This document shows, piece after piece, positions 8,062 through 11,590 of a stretch of 64,000 bases of DNA. This DNA is from a phage, in assembly GCA_024790105.1 (NCBI GenBank), contig GCA_024790105.1_3053.1, one strand, 5' to 3'. Under the pieces are notes generated by a model. That model saw only the letters and a program-made list of their open reading frames with translations, searched no databases and was not told the origin of the DNA. Within the stretch, counting starts at the first letter, position 1. The number at the start of each line of letters is the position of its first letter. Both the position numbers and the translations under genes were made by a program.

Positions 8062-8535
8062 TTATTTGATTTGTTTAGCAGACCAAATGCGGTCTTTAAT
8101 AATTTTTTGGATGTCTTCAACATACTCTAGGTCATGAGCATGTGGGTTATCTTTAAAGCTATGAGCACGAGCTAGCTTTTGGCCTTCAGTTTTGATTACT
8201 AAAAGCTCTTTAAGGATAGCTTCATATTTGGAGATAATTCCTTTAACGATATTTTTTTCTTGTGTGACTTTAGGATCTGCTTTAGGAGCAGGTTTACCCG
8301 AAGCCTTTGCAAAAGCAGCGCCAGTAGCAACTAAACTTTTCCAGGCCATACTAACTGCATTTCCCGTAAATCCTTCCGCTTTCATGTCGCGTGCGAACTG
8401 AAATCGCGATTCATTAGAAGCATCTTTGTAAGAATATTTACCCGCTGCAATGGCTGCTTTTGCAACAGCTTGAATTTCGGTGCTAGATGCTTCATTTAAC
8501 ACCGCTTCATTTAAAAATTGAGTATATGATTTCAT
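8062..8535 (-). CDS. capsid-targeting-sequence protein (internal-protein-like, e.8 position)
   Basis: 157 aa; N-terminus MKSYTQFLNEA resembles the internal-protein capsid targeting sequence. Confidence 0.55.
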   Translation of the reverse strand: MKSYTQFLNEAVLNEASSTEIQAVAKAAIAAGKYSYKDASNESRFQFARDMKAEGFTGNAVSMAWKSLVATGAAFAKASGKPAPKADPKVTQEKNIVKGIISKYEAILKELLVIKTEGQKLARAHSFKDNPHAHDLEYVEDIQKIIKDRIWSAKQIK

Positions 8536-8575
8536 CTTATTTCCTGTTTTAATTCGTGGTTTTAATATACTACTA

Positions 8576-8583
8576 TATTTATA
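8576..8583 (-). promoter_or_regulatory. late promoter TATAAATA (minus strand) upstream of ORF 8062..8535
   Basis: plus tatttata = TATAAATA on minus strand about 40 nt upstream of the start codon. Confidence 0.5.
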
Positions 8584-8615
8584 CCAAAAAGCCCCAACCT
8601 TTTGGTCGGGGCTAA
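8581..8615 (-). terminator. rho-independent terminator (copy 2 of identical 35-bp repeat), ends the tRNA/stable-RNA transcription unit
   Basis: exact repeat of 8023..8057. Confidence 0.7.
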
Positions 8616-8664
8616 GCCTTGCGGCAACCTTGTCGGGGTTCCACCTGCTAAGGCAAGTGTTTGT

Positions 8665-8756
8665 ACGAAACGCCGGGATTCGAACCCGGTTATTAAGTAG
8701 TTGACGCTACTCAATATTTTTAAAAGGCCATATCTCGACCATATCCGAACGTTCCG
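8665..8756 (-). ncRNA. tRNA-like stable RNA candidate (possibly equivalent to T4 rnaC/rnaD)
   Basis: canonical T-arm CCGGGTTCGAATCCCGG and a 7-bp acceptor-like pairing CGGAACG/CGTTTCG, but no standard anticodon arm and no CCA. Confidence 0.35.
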
Positions 8757-8929
8757 TCAAAAACGCTACTCGGCTTACGGCAAAGATATTTCCTCGAATC
8801 GATAATTCGGTGCGCCGTTTCTGCTGTGATATAAGGGGACATTAACAAAACATAAAGATTTGTTAATGCCAGTCCTTAAACAGGGAACATCAGTCCGACG
8901 ACTTACCGGTAGCGACCCGGCTTCTTGTT

Positions 8930-9006
<77 letters not shown>

Positions 9007-9009
9007 TAG

Positions 9010-9675
9010 TTAAAATTTCATTTTTCGACCTTTAAACCATCCTTCTGGAATTGGGTCAGTTTTCTTAATACGTTTAGAAACTTTTTCATCTAATGAATGA
9101 ATCCACATCATGCCAAATTGGGAATTCTTTTCACCTTGTTGGTGTTTATTTCTGGCGTGAGATTCTTTCATTTTATTAATAGTTTCAGGAGTATGGGTCT
9201 TACCCAAGAAAGATTTAGTATTTAAAAATTTCTCTCTATACTTAGGATTATCCCAAAGCTGTTTAAACCTTTCTGAACCCATTTTACGATATTTTTCTTT
9301 AAGGTCTGGGTCGTTCTCAAATCTGGTTTTAAAAGCAGCAGCCCCTTTTAAGGAAGCTTCTTTCTTTTTATCCAAATATTCTTTAGTGTTTAAATGGTCC
9401 CAACCACCTTCACCACCTAATTTCAAATTATAAACATCAGGGCGCTTTAAAAACTCTTCAGTCACAATATTCTTTTCTGACTCAAACATAGAGGTTTTAT
9501 CGTCAAAGAACTCTAATATTTCTTTAGAGAAATTTTCTATACCATACTTGTCTTGGGCTCTTTTTAATAATTTACCAGAACCCATATATCCATCATCTAA
9601 ATTTTCGGTAGAATGAGCGCCTATATAGATTTTATTATTAATTTTATTTGTTATTTTATAAGTGTAATGGAACAT
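9010..9675 (-). CDS. segB: GIY-YIG homing endonuclease SegB
   Basis: 221 aa; GIY-YIG module HYTYKITNKINNKIYIGAHST; sits inside the tRNA cluster as segB does in T4. Confidence 0.85.
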   Translation of the reverse strand: MFHYTYKITNKINNKIYIGAHSTENLDDGYMGSGKLLKRAQDKYGIENFSKEILEFFDDKTSMFESEKNIVTEEFLKRPDVYNLKLGGEGGWDHLNTKEYLDKKKEASLKGAAAFKTRFENDPDLKEKYRKMGSERFKQLWDNPKYREKFLNTKSFLGKTHTPETINKMKESHARNKHQQGEKNSQFGMMWIHSLDEKVSKRIKKTDPIPEGWFKGRKMKF

Positions 9676-9716
9676 AAATATCTCCTATTTCTAAGAGTAT
9701 TTATGTTCCCAAAATA

Positions 9717-9788
9717 TGGCCCTGGGTGGAATTGAACCACCATCTGGCGATTATGAGTCGCTTGCTTGAACCTTCCAGCTACAGGGCC
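9717..9788 (-). tRNA. tRNA-Ile/Met (anticodon CAU)
   Basis: acceptor GGCCCTG/CAGGGCC pairs, anticodon loop CTCATAA, T-loop TTCAATT. Confidence 0.8.
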
Positions 9789-9794
9789 TTGATA

Positions 9795-9850
9795 TGCTGA
9801 TTGACGGAATCGAACCGCCGACATCCTCATTACAAGTGAGGTGCTCTACC
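9795..9850 (-). pseudogene. tRNA-Thr (UGU) remnant, 5' acceptor strand and D-stem missing
   Basis: anticodon arm CCTCA-CTTGTAA-TGAGG, T-arm and 3' acceptor AATCAGC present, but no complementary GCTGATT upstream; that position is occupied by the 3' end of the HNH ORF. Confidence 0.5.
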
Positions 9851-10307
9851 ACGCTTCCGTTATTTTGTTTTTATATGCTCTATTCCTTGATTTATACGTA
9901 TCAAGTTGAGAGTCACAATTGGAACAAACAAATCTCAGATTTTCTAATCTATGGTCATTGTTTATTCCATTAATATGATCGAGAATTAAAGGCATTGGTT
10001 TGCCATTCCATACTGCTTCTATTCCACAGATAGAGCACTCATATGGTAATATTTTGTCTTCTATAAGTCTTTTTCTAAGATGGCTTCTGCCGTAAGAAGA
10101 ATTTTCAACCATTACATCACTAAGATTATATCTGTTGGTTTTTGGACCAGTCTTAAGTCCTTTATTCCAGATTTTGCAACCTTTTTGAGCTCCGGCTCCC
10201 TTCCCTCTCACATATTCAGCTTTATTTGGATTAAGTTTGCAATATTTTTCATGCACACTTTTTCCGCCAGCTTGTTTAAATTCTTTATTACAAAATTGAC
10301 AATTCAT
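9846..10307 (-). CDS. HNH homing endonuclease
   Basis: motif LDHINGINNDHRLENLRFVCSNCDSQ plus Cys pairs; start set at internal Met so it clears the tRNA-Pro region (ORF is open up to 10367). Confidence 0.75.
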   Translation of the reverse strand: MNCQFCNKEFKQAGGKSVHEKYCKLNPNKAEYVRGKGAGAQKGCKIWNKGLKTGPKTNRYNLSDVMVENSSYGRSHLRKRLIEDKILPYECSICGIEAVWNGKPMPLILDHINGINNDHRLENLRFVCSNCDSQLDTYKSRNRAYKNKITEAW

Positions 10308-10323
10308 TATCTTCTCATTTAAT

Positions 10324-10400
10324 TGGGGTGACCGATGGGATTTGAACCTACGACATTCTGCTCCCAAAGCAGACGCTCTACCAAACTGAGCTACACGGAG
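10324..10400 (-). pseudogene. tRNA-Pro (UGG)-like gene whose 3' acceptor strand cannot pair
   Basis: canonical D-arm TAGCTCAGTTTGGTAGAGC and anticodon arm TCTGC-TTTGGGA-GCAGA, but 5' CTCCGTG has no complement; 3' end reads CATCGGTCACCCCA. Confidence 0.5.
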
Positions 10401-10412
10401 TAAATTAAATTT

Positions 10413-10484
<72 letters not shown>

Positions 10485-10490
10485 AAACTT

Positions 10491-10577
10491 TGGTACGAGA
10501 AGTGGGACTCGAACCCACAAGGAAATCATTCCGCAGCATTTTAAGTGCTGTGCCTTTACCAATTTGACCATTCTCGC
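10491..10577 (-). tRNA. tRNA-Leu (anticodon UAA), long variable arm, CCA encoded
   Basis: acceptor GCGAGAA/TTCTCGT, anticodon loop CTTAAAA, long extra arm, T-arm GGGTTCGAGTCCC. Confidence 0.85.
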
Positions 10578-10583
10578 GTTATA

Positions 10584-11216
10584 TTATTTATTACGTGAAA
10601 AAGACTGTTCTATCAATTCTGGACACTTTCGTTCTATCCATTTTCTAGCTTTTTGTGGGCTTATACCTATTATTTTAGCAGCTTTACTAACCCATCCAAA
10701 TTTAGAATAATCGATTTTAACTAATTCTTCGTAAATTTCATCAGTTAAAATCTTTTCATTAATATTTACCAGTAAATGATATAATTTGTTATCATTAGCA
10801 ATTTTAATGAATCTTTTATAGTTTCCGCCTTTACTTAAACCTAATGAAGTAATTGCAGATGATATAGTAGCCGAATTTAATAATGCGTTTAAAATTTCTT
10901 CATCACTAACATTATAACGCTTTTTATTATTTTTAATATTTTTACCAGCAAAAGTATCAGTTTGCGAGTGACAGTTTGGACATAATAATCTTAAATTTGA
11001 TTTAAGATGATTTTTGTTATTTCCATCAATATGGTCTAATTGCAGAACAATATGCTTATTTTGCCATTTTGAAATTTTACAAATTGCACACTCATATGGA
11101 AAAATATTTTCTTTTATTATTTTGTCTTTCAGCTTTCCTGTGCTAAAATTTGGGTGTTTTCCTTCAAAAATTTCAGCTAATTTAGTATCCATAATATGAT
11201 TCCCAATTATTAACAA
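10584..11216 (-). CDS. HNH homing endonuclease (paralog of 9846..10307)
   Basis: motif LDHIDGNNKNHLKSNLRLLCPNCHSQ; stop codon lies 6 nt upstream of the tRNA-Leu 5' end. Confidence 0.75.
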   Translation of the reverse strand: MLIIGNHIMDTKLAEIFEGKHPNFSTGKLKDKIIKENIFPYECAICKISKWQNKHIVLQLDHIDGNNKNHLKSNLRLLCPNCHSQTDTFAGKNIKNNKKRYNVSDEEILNALLNSATISSAITSLGLSKGGNYKRFIKIANDNKLYHLLVNINEKILTDEIYEELVKIDYSKFGWVSKAAKIIGISPQKARKWIERKCPELIEQSFSRNK

Positions 11217-11302
11217 AGGCTCTCAAGCAAGAACCCTTGATGATAGAGGGTATTAATCAGTGCGATATGAGTTAATAATAACAAATAATTCTTAAAGCAT
11301 AT

Positions 11303-11590
11303 TTACCATTTATGATAATACATATTTACGATGCATTCAAGACCCAAAGGATTCTTGAAAATATCATATTCAAGAGGACCTTTTTCTGTTTCAATAAAGA
11401 AATCAAAATTTACTGTATTAAATTTACGGTCTTCCTTCACTAATTTAACTTGAGAAGATGAACGGTCAATGTAAACCTTTTCAACTTCAAAACATGTTAA
11501 AACGCCATAATCATCAATCAAGGCTTTAGCCGCGTCTTGATCATATTTATATCCATTTTCAATGGATGATACTTTCGCATAAAGAATCAT
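11303..11590 (-). CDS. hypothetical protein
   Basis: 95-aa ORF in minus-strand operon. Confidence 0.4.
   Translation of the reverse strand: MILYAKVSSIENGYKYDQDAAKALIDDYGVLTCFEVEKVYIDRSSSQVKLVKEDRKFNTVNFDFFIETEKGPLEYDIFKNPLGLECIVNMYYHKW

What the first reader, a model, noticed from the sequence alone, without database searches (positions are those of the whole stretch)
9795..10400. HNH endonuclease gene sits between a tRNA-Pro copy lacking a pairable 3' acceptor strand and a tRNA-Thr copy lacking its 5' part; no tRNA-Ser between them
Hand folding gives clean cloverleaves for tRNA-Leu, -Gly, -Ile(CAU) and -Arg. The Pro-like gene has canonical D and anticodon arms and 5' acceptor CTCCGTG, but no complementary CACGGAG near its 3' end (it reads CATCGGTCACCCCA). 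The Thr-like gene has anticodon arm, T-arm and 3' acceptor AATCAGC, but no GCTGATT or D-stem 5' strand; the HNH ORF C-terminus (KITEAW-stop) occupies that position. In T4 a tRNA-Ser lies between Pro and Thr. The pattern fits an HNH insertion that replaced tRNA-Ser and clipped both neighbours, although from this window alone ancestral absence cannot be excluded.
Basis: partly seen in the sequence, partly recalled or inferred. Interest (0 to 1): 0.6.

Follow-up and report, generated by a model that had tools for sequence, protein, structure and literature searches.

The report
Homing-endonuclease scar in phage tRNA cluster
A selfish nuclease gene copied from a different genus of T4-like phage has landed in this phage's tRNA cluster, deleting tRNA-Ser and leaving two dead hybrid tRNA genes; this is a clear natural example of a process already shown in the laboratory.

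Summary
On the minus strand the cluster reads Leu, Gly, Pro-like, HNH ORF, Thr-like, Ile(CAU), segB, Arg. ARAGORN calls neither Pro nor Thr, and Rfam gives only acceptor-less local tRNA hits.

The interpretation (an HNH insertion replaced tRNA-Ser and clipped both neighbours) is supported and can be made exact. Window 10337-9851 (487 nt) replaces 124 nt of the usual Tequatrovirus Pro-Ser-Thr stretch. It is about 98% identical to Enterobacter (Karamvirus) phages EnA02 and KKP_3262, where the same ORF sits between intact tRNA-His and tRNA-Ser(UGA).

The "unpairable" Pro 3' end is the 3' end of tRNA-His. The sequence ahead of the Thr remnant is the first 16 nt of the donor tRNA-Ser. Both junctions lie in conserved tRNA motifs: GGTTCAA(A/C)TCC in the T-loop and GGTAGAGC in the D-arm.

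Six independent SRA assemblies carry the same left junction. Five of them keep a longer right junction. The flanking backgrounds differ, so this is not an assembly artefact.

Relatives of the nuclease at 55-99% identity all lie in phage tRNA clusters, and most sit directly 5' of tRNA-Ser(UGA).

The best reading is double-strand-break repair at microhomologies. The break was probably made by this HNH enzyme; SegB is the rival. This is a new instance of a known process and of moderate interest.

The parts
10491..10577 (-). tRNA-Leu(UAA), intact
   Evidence: ARAGORN; Rfam tRNA 57 bits, full length
10413..10484 (-). tRNA-Gly(UCC), intact
   Evidence: ARAGORN; Rfam tRNA 65.8 bits
10338..10400 (-). 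5' 63 nt of the Tequatrovirus tRNA-Pro(UGG): acceptor 5' strand, D arm, anticodon arm and T-stem 5' strand plus loop
   Evidence: Identical to the T4_ev151 tRNA-Pro up to GGTTCAAATCC; local Rfam hit of 45 bits covering model positions 6-65
10338..10348 (-). Left crossover block GGTTCAAATCC (T-loop motif). The exchange lies within TCC, 10340-10338.
   Evidence: Alignment A1: T4-specific A at 10341, donor-specific C at 10337. The motif equals the SegB core recognition element GGTTCRANTCC (PMC2330249).
10324..10337 (-). 3' 14 nt of a Karamvirus-type tRNA-His (CATCGGTCACCCCA): T-stem 3' strand, acceptor 3' strand, C73 and CCA
   Evidence: Identical to the tRNA-His 3' end of Entb_43, and to that of EnA02 as far as CATCGGTCACC
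10308..10323 (-). Donor spacer and leader (ATT from the His|Ser spacer, then AAATGAGAAGATA) upstream of the ORF
   Evidence: The empty site in Entb_43 reads CCAATTC-GGAAGCG; the window reads CCAATT-AAATGAG
9846..10307 (-). Free-standing HNH endonuclease ORF, 153 aa plus stop: N-terminal CX2CX12HX3C zinc finger and C-terminal HNH core LDHINGINNDHRLENLRFVCSNCDSQ
   Evidence: ORF list. 99.3% amino-acid identity to the EnA02/KKP_3262 ORF, with only 2 synonymous differences before codon 147. PHROG 10822 'HNH endonuclease' at 8.7e-32. Pfam HNH 20.2 bits, below the 21.4 cut-off. All family-invariant residues present. AlphaFold pLDDT 86, with top fold matches that are almost all HNH nucleases but weak in E-value.
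9868..9872 (-). A5 run (A4 in EnA02). The +1 shift extends the ORF by 5 codons (…NKITEAW) into the tRNA-Ser fragment.
   Evidence: present in all six independent contigs
9843..9858 (-). 5' 16 nt of a Karamvirus-type tRNA-Ser(UGA), GGAAGCGTGGTAGAGC, overlapped by the ORF end and its stop codon
   Evidence: Identical to the EnA02 tRNA-Ser start
9843..9850 (-). Right crossover block GGTAGAGC (D-arm motif shared by the donor tRNA-Ser and the recipient tRNA-Thr)
   Evidence: Alignment A1. Five sister contigs instead keep 11 more donor nucleotides and cross over at GCACC.
9795..9842 (-). 3' 48 nt of the Tequatrovirus tRNA-Thr(UGU): anticodon arm, variable loop, T arm, acceptor 3' strand and discriminator
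   Evidence: Identical to the T4_ev151 tRNA-Thr from ACCTCAC onward; local Rfam hit of 29 bits
9717..9788 (-). tRNA-Ile(CAU), called Met by ARAGORN; intact
9010..9675 (-). segB, a GIY-YIG homing endonuclease (221 aa)
   Evidence: Pfam GIY-YIG 25.7 bits; annotated SegB in related records
8930..9006 (-). tRNA-Arg(UCU), intact
10584..11192 (-). Second HNH endonuclease ORF (202 aa) occupying the position of tRNA-Gln. The Gln 5' acceptor strand TGGGAAT survives at 11199-11205.
   Evidence: PHROG 14736 at 6e-124; L003 and L006 have an intact tRNA-Gln here

Best explanation
The locus is the scar of a recent lateral transfer of a free-standing HNH homing-endonuclease gene. The gene came from a Karamvirus-type tRNA cluster, where it sits in the 4-nt spacer between tRNA-His and tRNA-Ser(UGA). 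It entered the tRNA cluster of a Tequatrovirus (T4-like) phage.

Shown:
- 487 nt of foreign DNA replace 124 nt of the T4-type Pro-Ser-Thr stretch. The foreign DNA is the His 3' end, the spacer and leader, the ORF, and the Ser 5' end.
- Both junctions fall in short tRNA motifs shared by otherwise unrelated tRNAs: GGTTCAA(A/C)TCC for Pro/His and GGTAGAGC for Ser/Thr.
- The products are two chimeric pseudo-tRNAs, Pro5'::His3' and Ser5'::Thr3'. Neither has an acceptor stem. tRNA-Ser is lost.
- The phage keeps 4 of the 8 T4 tRNAs: Leu, Gly, Ile and Arg.

Inferred:
- A double-strand break in or next to the recipient's tRNA-Ser(UGA) gene was resected into Pro and Thr. It was then repaired by copying from a co-infecting donor, with strand annealing at the only available microhomologies. 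This is 'illegitimate DSB repair', demonstrated experimentally for T4 intron homing.
- The break was most likely made by this HNH enzyme. Its relatives are consistently parked at the 5' edge of tRNA-Ser(UGA), and the T4 cluster has such a gene exactly where the deletion is centred.
- Once in a Tequatrovirus, the cassette has long perfect homology on both sides. It can therefore spread by ordinary homing into T4-like phages that still have Pro-Ser-Thr.
- The window's right junction is a derived or alternative form of the longer junction seen in five sister contigs.
For: 1. Source of the insert:
- Window 10348-9843 is 98.4% identical to EnA02 and KKP_3262. The ORF is 99.3% identical in protein, with 2 synonymous changes.
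- The only other BLAST match between the 3.1-kb window region and 6.5 kb of the EnA02 tRNA cluster is 147 nt at 86%.

2. Direction of transfer:
- In EnA02 the ORF lies between intact tRNA-His and tRNA-Ser.
- Many Karamviruses have the empty site, CCA-ATTC-GGAAGCG.
- The window carries only the 14-nt and 16-nt ends of those tRNAs, fused to Pro and Thr.

3. Junctions in microhomology.

4. A real sequence, not an artefact:
- The exact 153-aa protein lies on six independent SRA-derived contigs in T4-like context. All have the same left junction.
- It is also NCBI EJP8998683.1, and the longest contig carrying the 153-aa protein is 171,081 nt.

5. Spread among different backgrounds:
- The cassette differs by 1 SNP among the contigs. 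The left flank of L006 differs at 9 of 229 positions, up to 2 nt from the junction motif. That flank is 99.8% identical to phage G2540, which has an intact Pro.
- L003 and L006 have tRNA-Gln where the window has another HNH gene.

6. Target preference:
- Nine sampled contexts of homologs at 55-99% identity are all in phage tRNA clusters. Six are 0-30 nt upstream of tRNA-Ser(UGA).
- The T4 tRNA-Ser 5' half closely resembles the Karamvirus allele.

7. The protein is intact, with all family-invariant residues.

8. Experimental precedent: illegitimate DSB repair at microhomologies with extensive resection during T4 intron homing (Parker et al. 1999, as summarised in PMC2988022).
Against: - No cleavage site of this enzyme is known, so the initiating nuclease is inferred only from where relatives sit.
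- The left junction coincides with the core recognition motif of SegB, which is encoded 170 nt away and cuts the 3' ends of the T4 tRNA-Pro and tRNA-Ser genes in vitro. SegB could therefore have made the break.
- The T-loop is also the most conserved stretch of any tRNA. A junction there does not discriminate between mechanisms.
- The actual donor has not been sampled. EnA02 differs in the His trailer (CTAAACT against CCCAATT) and lacks the +1 A.
- Pfam HNH is just below its gathering score, and fold matches to HNH nucleases have weak E-values.
- The two right-junction types could mean two independent acquisitions rather than one origin.
Confidence: 0.8

Rival explanations
1. Same transfer and same scar, but the initiating breaks were made by SegB rather than by the HNH enzyme. 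SegB would cut at the 3' ends of tRNA-Pro and tRNA-Ser, dropping out the Ser segment. The ends would then be repaired from a co-infecting Karamvirus-type genome at T-loop and D-arm microhomologies, and the HNH gene would be a passenger in this step.
For: - SegB recognises GGTTCRANTCC and cleaves at the 3' ends of the T4 tRNA Gln, Leu, Gly, Pro and Ser genes (PMC2330249). The left junction lies exactly in that motif of tRNA-Pro.
- segB is intact in the window.
- SegB-dependent, UvsX/UvsY-dependent rearrangements with microhomology junctions occur in the T6 tRNA region (PMC13096335).
Against: - It does not explain why relatives of this HNH gene sit at the 5' edge of tRNA-Ser(UGA) in unrelated phages.
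- The T-loop motif is the expected microhomology between any two tRNAs, whatever nuclease made the break.
- SegB expression in T4 is reported to be kept very low, and its own genome is normally spared.
Confidence: 0.2
2. Nuclease-independent illegitimate recombination or replication template switching between co-infecting phages at short tRNA motifs. The HNH ORF would be an inactive or irrelevant passenger that later spread only by general recombination.
For: - T4-type phages recombine at very high frequency.
- The junction microhomologies are 3-11 nt.
- There is no biochemical evidence that the enzyme is active.
- The Pfam score is below threshold.
Against: - The ORF is intact in all seven copies and keeps every family-invariant residue.
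- The cassette is almost invariant across diverged flanks.
- The family associates tightly with one tRNA gene, which is typical of site-specific homing.
Confidence: 0.12
3. Assembly or sequencing artefact: a chimeric contig from a sample holding both a Tequatrovirus and a Karamvirus.
For: None of the 50,697 GenBank phage records has this arrangement. IMG/VR, JGI metagenome and GTDB scans were also negative.
Against: - Six independently assembled runs carry the same left junction. They show two right-junction variants and differing flanks.
- Microhomologies of 3-11 nt are far shorter than assembler k-mers.
- A 487-nt double crossover is not a typical misjoin.
Confidence: 0.02
4. The Pro-like and Thr-like genes are still functional, unusual tRNAs, or tRNA-Ser was never present in this lineage.
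For: The D and anticodon arms of the Pro-like gene, and the anticodon and T arms of the Thr-like gene, are intact.
Against: - The acceptor stems have 3 of 7 and 2 of 7 pairs, and ARAGORN makes no call.
- The mismatching ends are verbatim pieces of other tRNAs.
- Flanking sequence 98-100% identical to phages with an intact Pro-Ser-Thr stretch rules out ancestral absence.
Confidence: 0.03

Closest known systems
Phage T4 SegB, a free-standing GIY-YIG homing endonuclease in the T4 tRNA cluster (Brok-Volchanskaya et al. 2008, PMC2330249)
   Same: - A free-standing homing endonuclease gene embedded between phage tRNA genes.
- Its targets are tRNA genes.
- Homing replaces the recipient's tRNA region, and tRNA genes are lost or exchanged in the process.
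- It is co-transcribed with the tRNAs.
   Different: - A different nuclease family (GIY-YIG, not HNH).
- SegB transfer between T4 and T2 uses extended flanking homology and leaves whole tRNA genes. Here the entry step crossed genera and produced chimeric pseudo-tRNAs at microhomologies.
[quoted passage not shown] 2010, PMC2988022)
   Same: A homing element acquired with limited or no homology; junctions at microhomologies; extensive nucleolytic resection with loss of recipient sequence.
   Different: That was an engineered plasmid-phage system using the td intron and I-TevI. This is a natural event between two phage genera involving a free-standing HNH gene, with conserved tRNA motifs supplying the microhomology.
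[quoted passage not shown]
   Same: HNH-family endonuclease ORFs interspersed among phage tRNA genes.
   Different: - No direct sequence comparison with the T5 enzymes was made here.
- This subfamily has an N-terminal C2HC zinc finger and a specific association with tRNA-Ser(UGA).
SegB-driven segmental amplification in phage T6 (Chihara et al. 2026, PMC13096335)
   Same: Nuclease-induced breaks in a T-even tRNA cluster, resolved by phage recombination at microhomologies, change the phage tRNA gene content.
   Different: There the outcome is tandem amplification of a tRNA under selection by a defence system. Here it is replacement and loss of three tRNAs with gain of a foreign homing endonuclease gene.
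T4 mobE and other free-standing HNH homing endonucleases of T-even phages (PMC2790892, PMC2988022)
   Same: A small free-standing HNH ORF in an intergenic position next to its presumed target gene, with a patchy distribution among related phages.
   Different: The HNH core is only distantly related, and the target is an RNA gene rather than a protein-coding gene. No activity data exist.

Membership tests
HNH (ββα-Me) nuclease superfamily | HNH sequence motif (catalytic His, structural Asn, metal ligand) flanked by CxxC pairs, recognised by family profiles | tested here: inconclusive
   - The motif C91-x2-C94 … D110-H111 … N123 … C128-x2-C131-D132 is present and invariant in 38 relatives.
- PHROG 10822 'HNH endonuclease' scores 8.7e-32.
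- Pfam PF01844 scores 20.2 bits, just under its 21.4 gathering score, and NCBIfam gives no hit.
- The last motif position is Asp rather than His in this subfamily.
HNH (ββα-Me) nuclease superfamily | ββα-metal fold | tested here: inconclusive
   The AlphaFold model has mean pLDDT 86.3, with β-strands at 108-111 and 124-127 followed by helix 129-133. Foldseek top hits are almost all HNH nucleases (ZRANB3 HNH, McrA, Cap5, Gme HNH, PacI, EndoVII, I-HmuI), but none has E ≤ 0.001; the best is 0.046.
Free-standing homing endonuclease genes of T4-like phages | Presence/absence polymorphism at one conserved intergenic site among closely related genomes | tested here: met
   - In Karamviruses the His|Ser spacer is filled with this HNH in EnA02 and KKP_3262, empty in the other Karamvirus records listed (for example Entb_43), and filled by a different homing endonuclease (one annotated GIY-YIG) in EnC15, fGh-Ecl04 and others.
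- In Tequatroviruses it is present in seven sequences and absent from all of the roughly 530 GenBank records that matched.
Free-standing homing endonuclease genes of T4-like phages | Site-specific cleavage of the allele lacking the gene | not testable with these tools
   This needs purified protein and substrate DNA. The only indirect evidence is the position of relatives next to tRNA-Ser(UGA).
Free-standing homing endonuclease genes of T4-like phages | Nuclease-dependent super-Mendelian inheritance with co-conversion of flanks in mixed infection | not testable with these tools
   The indirect signature is a near-invariant cassette in flanks that differ by up to 3.9%, right up to the junction.
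Functional tRNA genes (Pro, Thr) | 7-bp acceptor stem plus D, anticodon and T arms (cloverleaf) | tested here: not met
   ARAGORN makes no call. Rfam hits are local and lack acceptor positions. Acceptor pairs are 3 of 7 and 2 of 7, and the Thr-like gene lacks the D-stem 5' strand.
Group I intron-encoded endonuclease (intron within a tRNA gene) | The ORF is embedded in a self-splicing intron that interrupts one gene, whose two exons join into a functional product | tested here: not met
   No Rfam intron family hit in 8400-11400 at E ≤ 10. The two flanking fragments belong to different tRNAs (Pro and Thr), and joining them would not make a tRNA.

The most novel reading that the evidence does not exclude
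This small C2HC-zinc-finger HNH family would be a previously uncharacterised lineage of homing endonucleases specialised on phage tRNA-Ser(UGA) genes. Universally conserved tRNA motifs (T-loop, D-arm) would serve as portable homology arms that let such genes jump between phage genera with no other sequence similarity. The cost would be eroded tRNA repertoires: this phage has lost 4 of the 8 T4 tRNAs to two HNH genes. Selfish nucleases would then be a major and directional force shaping which tRNAs a phage keeps, and so how well it resists tRNA-targeting host defences.
Probability: 0.3. Interest if true: 0.55.

Novelty: new member of a known kind. Interest (0 to 1): 0.38.

Why it matters
This is an unusually legible natural record of how a homing endonuclease gene crosses between phage genera. 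Donor-type, recipient-type and empty-site sequences are all available. Both junctions can be read to within a few nucleotides. Sister contigs preserve an alternative junction.

It shows that conserved tRNA motifs can act as landing pads. It also shows that the entry step is destructive: three tRNAs were lost and two pseudo-tRNAs created.

Phage tRNAs are now known to counter tRNA-cleaving defences; tRNA-Tyr against Septu is one example (PMC13096335). Nuclease-driven loss of tRNAs may therefore carry real fitness costs in some hosts.

In practice, annotation pipelines will silently miss or mislabel such chimeric remnants. The phage genome carrying this locus is filed in NCBI under Escherichia coli.

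Tried and rejected
- Exact-pattern scans for both junctions, the cassette leader and an internal 32-mer found nothing in IMG/VR, JGI metagenomes or GTDB genomes. The cassette is rare outside two GenBank Karamviruses and the Logan contigs, and no closer donor was found.
- The search for homologous proteins did not list the query's own cluster at high identity; the top hit was 86%. The exact look-up recovered the cluster instead.
- A first tblastn attempt used the wrong frame boundaries and was corrected to 9849-10307.
- The sequence search of PDB gave only a C2H2 zinc-finger match to the N-terminus.
- A group I intron or split-tRNA reading was considered and rejected, because there is no intron RNA hit and the two flanks are different tRNAs.
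- An assembly chimera was considered and rejected on the basis of six independent contigs.
- I could not decide whether the window's short right junction arose by an 11-nt deletion of TGGCTTATTGC from the long form or by a separate annealing at GGTAGAGC. The window lineage keeps the donor-like T at 10026 while the long-junction contigs have C (no difference from EnA02 at that codon). The two forms are therefore sisters, and neither is ancestral to the other.
Full report
**1. What is in the sequence**

All features lie on the minus strand. ARAGORN finds four tRNA genes in the region, and in the whole 64-kb window:
- Arg(UCU) 8930-9006
- Ile/Met(CAU) 9717-9788
- Gly(UCC) 10413-10484
- Leu(UAA) 10491-10577

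A permissive Rfam scan gives full-length tRNA hits of 57-71 bits for these four. It also gives two local hits that stop short of the acceptor stem:
- 10333-10395: 45 bits, model positions 6-65, anticodon UGG.
- 9803-9855: 29 bits, model positions 9-63, anticodon UGU.

Between the two local hits lies an ORF whose real start is the ATG at 10307 and whose stop is the TAG at 9848-9846. It encodes 153 aa ending KITEAW.

Direct pair counts:
- Pro-like gene: 3 of 7 acceptor pairs, against 7 of 7 in the T4-type gene, plus a mismatch in the T stem.
- Thr-like gene: 2 of 7 acceptor pairs, and no D-stem 5' strand.

**2. What the usual arrangement is**

The flanks are 97-98% identical to many Tequatrovirus (T4-like) genomes. 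In those genomes the order is Leu-Gly-Pro-Ser-Thr-Ile-segB-Arg. In T4_ev151 (L002), Pro is at 2521-2595, Ser at 2596-2684 and Thr at 2691-2763. Of 530 phage records matching the query 9790-10420, all the T4-like ones match only the two flanks, and the listed records that carry tRNA annotation show tRNA-Ser, Pro, Thr and Gly there. No GenBank phage record has the window's arrangement.

**3. Where the insert comes from**

Only two records cover the middle of the query: Enterobacter phages EnA02 and KKP_3262 (EnA02 is classified in Karamvirus). They are 98.4% identical over window 10348-9843. The protein is 99.3% identical over 148 residues. At the DNA level the ORF differs by two synonymous changes before codon 147.

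In EnA02 the ORF (148 aa) lies between an intact tRNA-His(GUG) and an intact tRNA-Ser(UGA), ending 1 nt before the latter.

The only other BLAST match between the 3.1-kb window region and 6.5 kb of the EnA02 tRNA cluster is 147 nt at 86%. The near-identity of the cassette is therefore anomalous and indicates recent transfer.

**4. The breakpoints**

The three-way alignment and BLAST coordinates give the following.
- T4-type sequence runs down to 10338 and resumes at 9850.
- The parent's 124 nt (L002 2584-2707) are replaced by 487 nt (10337-9851). The lost stretch is the Pro 3' strand, all of Ser, the spacer and the 5' part of Thr.

Left junction:

| Source | Sequence |
|---|---|
| T4 type | GGTTCAAATCC-TGCCACGGAG |
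| Donor type | GGTTCAACTCC-CATCGGTCACC |
| Window | GGTTCAAATCC-CATCGGTCACCCCA |

The exchange lies within TCC (10340-10338), in a block matching at 10 of 11 positions that is the universal T-loop motif.

Right junction:

| Source | Sequence |
|---|---|
| Donor tRNA-Ser | GGAAGCGTGGTAGAGC-TGGC |
| T4 tRNA-Thr | …AGTAGGTAGAGC-ACCTCAC |
| Window | GGAAGCGTGGTAGAGC-ACCTCAC |

The exchange lies within the 8-nt D-arm motif GGTAGAGC (9850-9843). The Thr-like gene is therefore a Ser5'::Thr3' chimera, not just a truncation.

The C-terminal KITEAW comes from one extra A in an A-run (9872-9868; A5 against A4 in EnA02). The shift makes the ORF read through the first 13 nt of the tRNA-Ser fragment (GGAAGCGTGGTAG), ending at a TAG that lies within GGTAGAGC.

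**5. Direction of transfer and the empty site**

Many Karamviruses (Entb_43, KMB20, Pet-CM3-4, PG7 and others) have His and Ser separated by only ATTC. The window's left flank, …CACCCCAATT|AAATGAG, matches this empty-site sequence better than it matches EnA02 (…CACCTAAACT|AAATGAG). The true donor is therefore an unsampled relative in which the cassette sits exactly in the 4-nt spacer.

Other Karamviruses carry a different homing endonuclease gene at the same spacer; EnC15's is annotated 'homing endonuclease' and fGh-Ecl04's 'GIY-YIG nuclease family protein'.

His and Ser are whole genes there and only 14-nt and 16-nt stubs here. Transfer therefore ran from a Karamvirus-type genome into the Tequatrovirus. 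'Ancestral absence' of tRNA-Ser is excluded.

**6. It is real, and it has spread**

The exact 153-aa protein is encoded on six Logan (SRA-derived) contigs, all in T4-like context. It is also NCBI EJP8998683.1, 'hypothetical protein [Escherichia coli]', and the longest contig carrying the protein is 171,081 nt, a whole phage genome in size.

L004 is 100% identical to the window over 3 kb. All six share the left junction.

Five of them (L003, L005-L008) have a longer right junction: GGAAGCGTGGTAGAGCTGGCTTATTGCACC|TCACTTG. It keeps the whole donor Ser D-arm and crosses over at GCACC, inside a block matching Thr at 15 of 17 positions. The window and L004 lack those 11 nt.

The window lineage keeps the donor-like T at 10026, whereas the long-junction contigs have C (the window does not differ from EnA02 at that codon). 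The two forms are therefore sisters. Either an 11-nt deletion occurred, or annealing took place at GGTAGAGC during a later repair event. I could not decide between these.

The cassette differs by a single SNP among all copies. Over the same contigs:
- The left flank of L006 differs at 9 of 229 positions, the last only 2 nt from the junction motif.
- That flank is 99.8% identical to phage vB_EcoM_G2540, which has an intact tRNA-Pro.
- L003 and L006 carry tRNA-Gln where the window carries another HNH gene.

An invariant cassette in diverged backgrounds, with short co-conversion tracts, is what homing among Tequatroviruses would produce. General recombination is not excluded.

**7. The protein and its family**

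The protein has an N-terminal CX2CX12HX3C zinc finger. That segment matches C2H2 zinc fingers in PDB at E = 6e-4. The C-terminal HNH core reads C91xxC94 … LDH111INGINNDHRLEN123LRFVC128SNC131D132SQ.

Every residue invariant in 38 relatives is present. Evidence for family membership:
- PHROG 10822 'HNH endonuclease': 8.7e-32.
- Pfam HNH: 20.2 bits, just under the 21.4 cut-off.
- NCBIfam: no hit.
- AlphaFold model: confident, with mean pLDDT 86.
- Foldseek hits in PDB: almost all HNH nucleases, but with weak E-values, the best being 0.046.

Membership in the HNH superfamily is therefore very likely but not formally met by curated thresholds.

More than 1,300 relatives exist in metagenomes. I sampled nine genomic contexts at 55-99% identity, and all lie in phage tRNA clusters. 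Six are 0-30 nt upstream of a tRNA-Ser(UGA):

| Locus | Arrangement |
|---|---|
| EnA02 | His-HNH-Ser |
| L011 | Gln-HNH-Ser (His missing; ORF overlaps Ser by 24 nt) |
| L012, L013 | His-HNH-Ser-Thr |
| L014, L015 | HNH directly upstream of tRNA-Ser(UGA); different upstream neighbours |

The 5' half of tRNA-Ser(UGA) is conserved across these phages and in T4.

**8. Mechanism**

Shown: replacement, chimeras, microhomology junctions, donor type, and multiple backgrounds.

Inferred: a double-strand break in or beside the recipient's tRNA-Ser(UGA) was resected into Pro and Thr. It was then repaired by copying from a co-infecting donor genome, annealing at the only similar stretches available.

This is the 'illegitimate DSB repair' described experimentally for T4 intron acquisition, with microhomology junctions and extensive degradation (Parker et al. 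1999, summarised in PMC2988022).

I favour the HNH enzyme as the initiator, because its family sits at tRNA-Ser(UGA) and the deletion is centred on that gene.

The serious rival is SegB. It is encoded 170 nt downstream, recognises GGTTCRANTCC and cuts the 3' ends of the T4 tRNA Pro and Ser genes in vitro (PMC2330249). It also drives microhomology rearrangements in the T6 tRNA region (PMC13096335). The left junction lies in that very motif. However, the same motif is the expected microhomology between any two tRNAs, so its location does not discriminate.

**9. Consequences**

The phage retains 4 of the 8 T4 tRNAs. A second HNH gene (10584-11192) has replaced tRNA-Gln, leaving only TGGGAAT. The tRNA region is reported as non-essential for T4 development (PMC2330249), which fits the persistence of this genotype in several samples. 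Loss could matter on hosts with tRNA-targeting defences (PMC13096335).

**10. Verdict**

This is a new, well-resolved natural instance of known processes: free-standing homing endonuclease genes in phage tRNA clusters, and illegitimate DSB repair. It involves an uncharacterised HNH subfamily associated with tRNA-Ser(UGA). It is of moderate interest and is not a new kind of system.

Noticed in passing
window 10584-11205 (-): A second HNH endonuclease ORF (202 aa from the ATG at 11192; PHROG 14736) occupies the exact position of tRNA-Gln. Only the Gln 5' acceptor strand TGGGAAT (11205-11199) remains. Sister contigs L003 and L006 have an intact tRNA-Gln there. Its HNH core is 44% identical to the Pro/Thr-site enzyme. 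With segB, the cluster holds three homing endonuclease genes and only four tRNAs.
   Followed up: partly
L001 3490-3510, L010 1098-1118, L009 431-452: Karamvirus tRNA-Ser alleles that sit next to a homing endonuclease gene (EnA02 with the HNH, EnC15 with a different homing endonuclease) read GTAGAGC-TGGC in the D-loop. The empty-site allele (Entb_43) and most other relatives read GTAGAGTCTGG. This may be a polymorphism that protects the carrier from its own nuclease.
   Followed up: no
L011 183-903: In the contig carrying the 86%-identical homolog P0001, the order is Met-Gln-HNH-Ser. tRNA-His is missing, and the ORF overlaps tRNA-Ser by 24 nt. This is another apparent case of tRNA loss next to this nuclease family.
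   Followed up: no
L010 479-1093 and records H130, H140, H144, H147, H148: In several Karamviruses, roughly 650 nt of extra DNA fills the same His|Ser spacer. It is annotated as a homing endonuclease in four of the records (GIY-YIG in fGh-Ecl04); the fifth has no annotation. This 4-nt spacer is therefore a hotspot used by two nuclease families.
   Followed up: partly
window ~8660-8803 (-); L001 3666-3810: A 147-nt stretch downstream of tRNA-Arg is 86% identical between the window and Karamvirus EnA02. ARAGORN calls an odd 96-nt 'tRNA-Phe' at L001 3712-3807, and no Rfam family matches. It is probably the region of the T4 stable 'species I/II' RNAs, conserved across genera but absent from Rfam.
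   Followed up: no
window 9846-10307 (-): The 153-aa protein is deposited in NCBI as EJP8998683.1, 'hypothetical protein [Escherichia coli]', and the longest contig carrying the protein is 171,081 nt. A complete T4-like phage genome appears to be filed under a bacterial assembly.
   Followed up: no
window 9716-9788 and 8932-9006 (+): Rfam 'Plastid-ycf2 5'UTR' and 'Plastid-psbI-rps4' models give sub-threshold hits on the antisense strand of tRNA-Ile and tRNA-Arg. These models evidently contain reverse-complemented tRNA sequence, so the hits are database artefacts rather than features.
   Followed up: no
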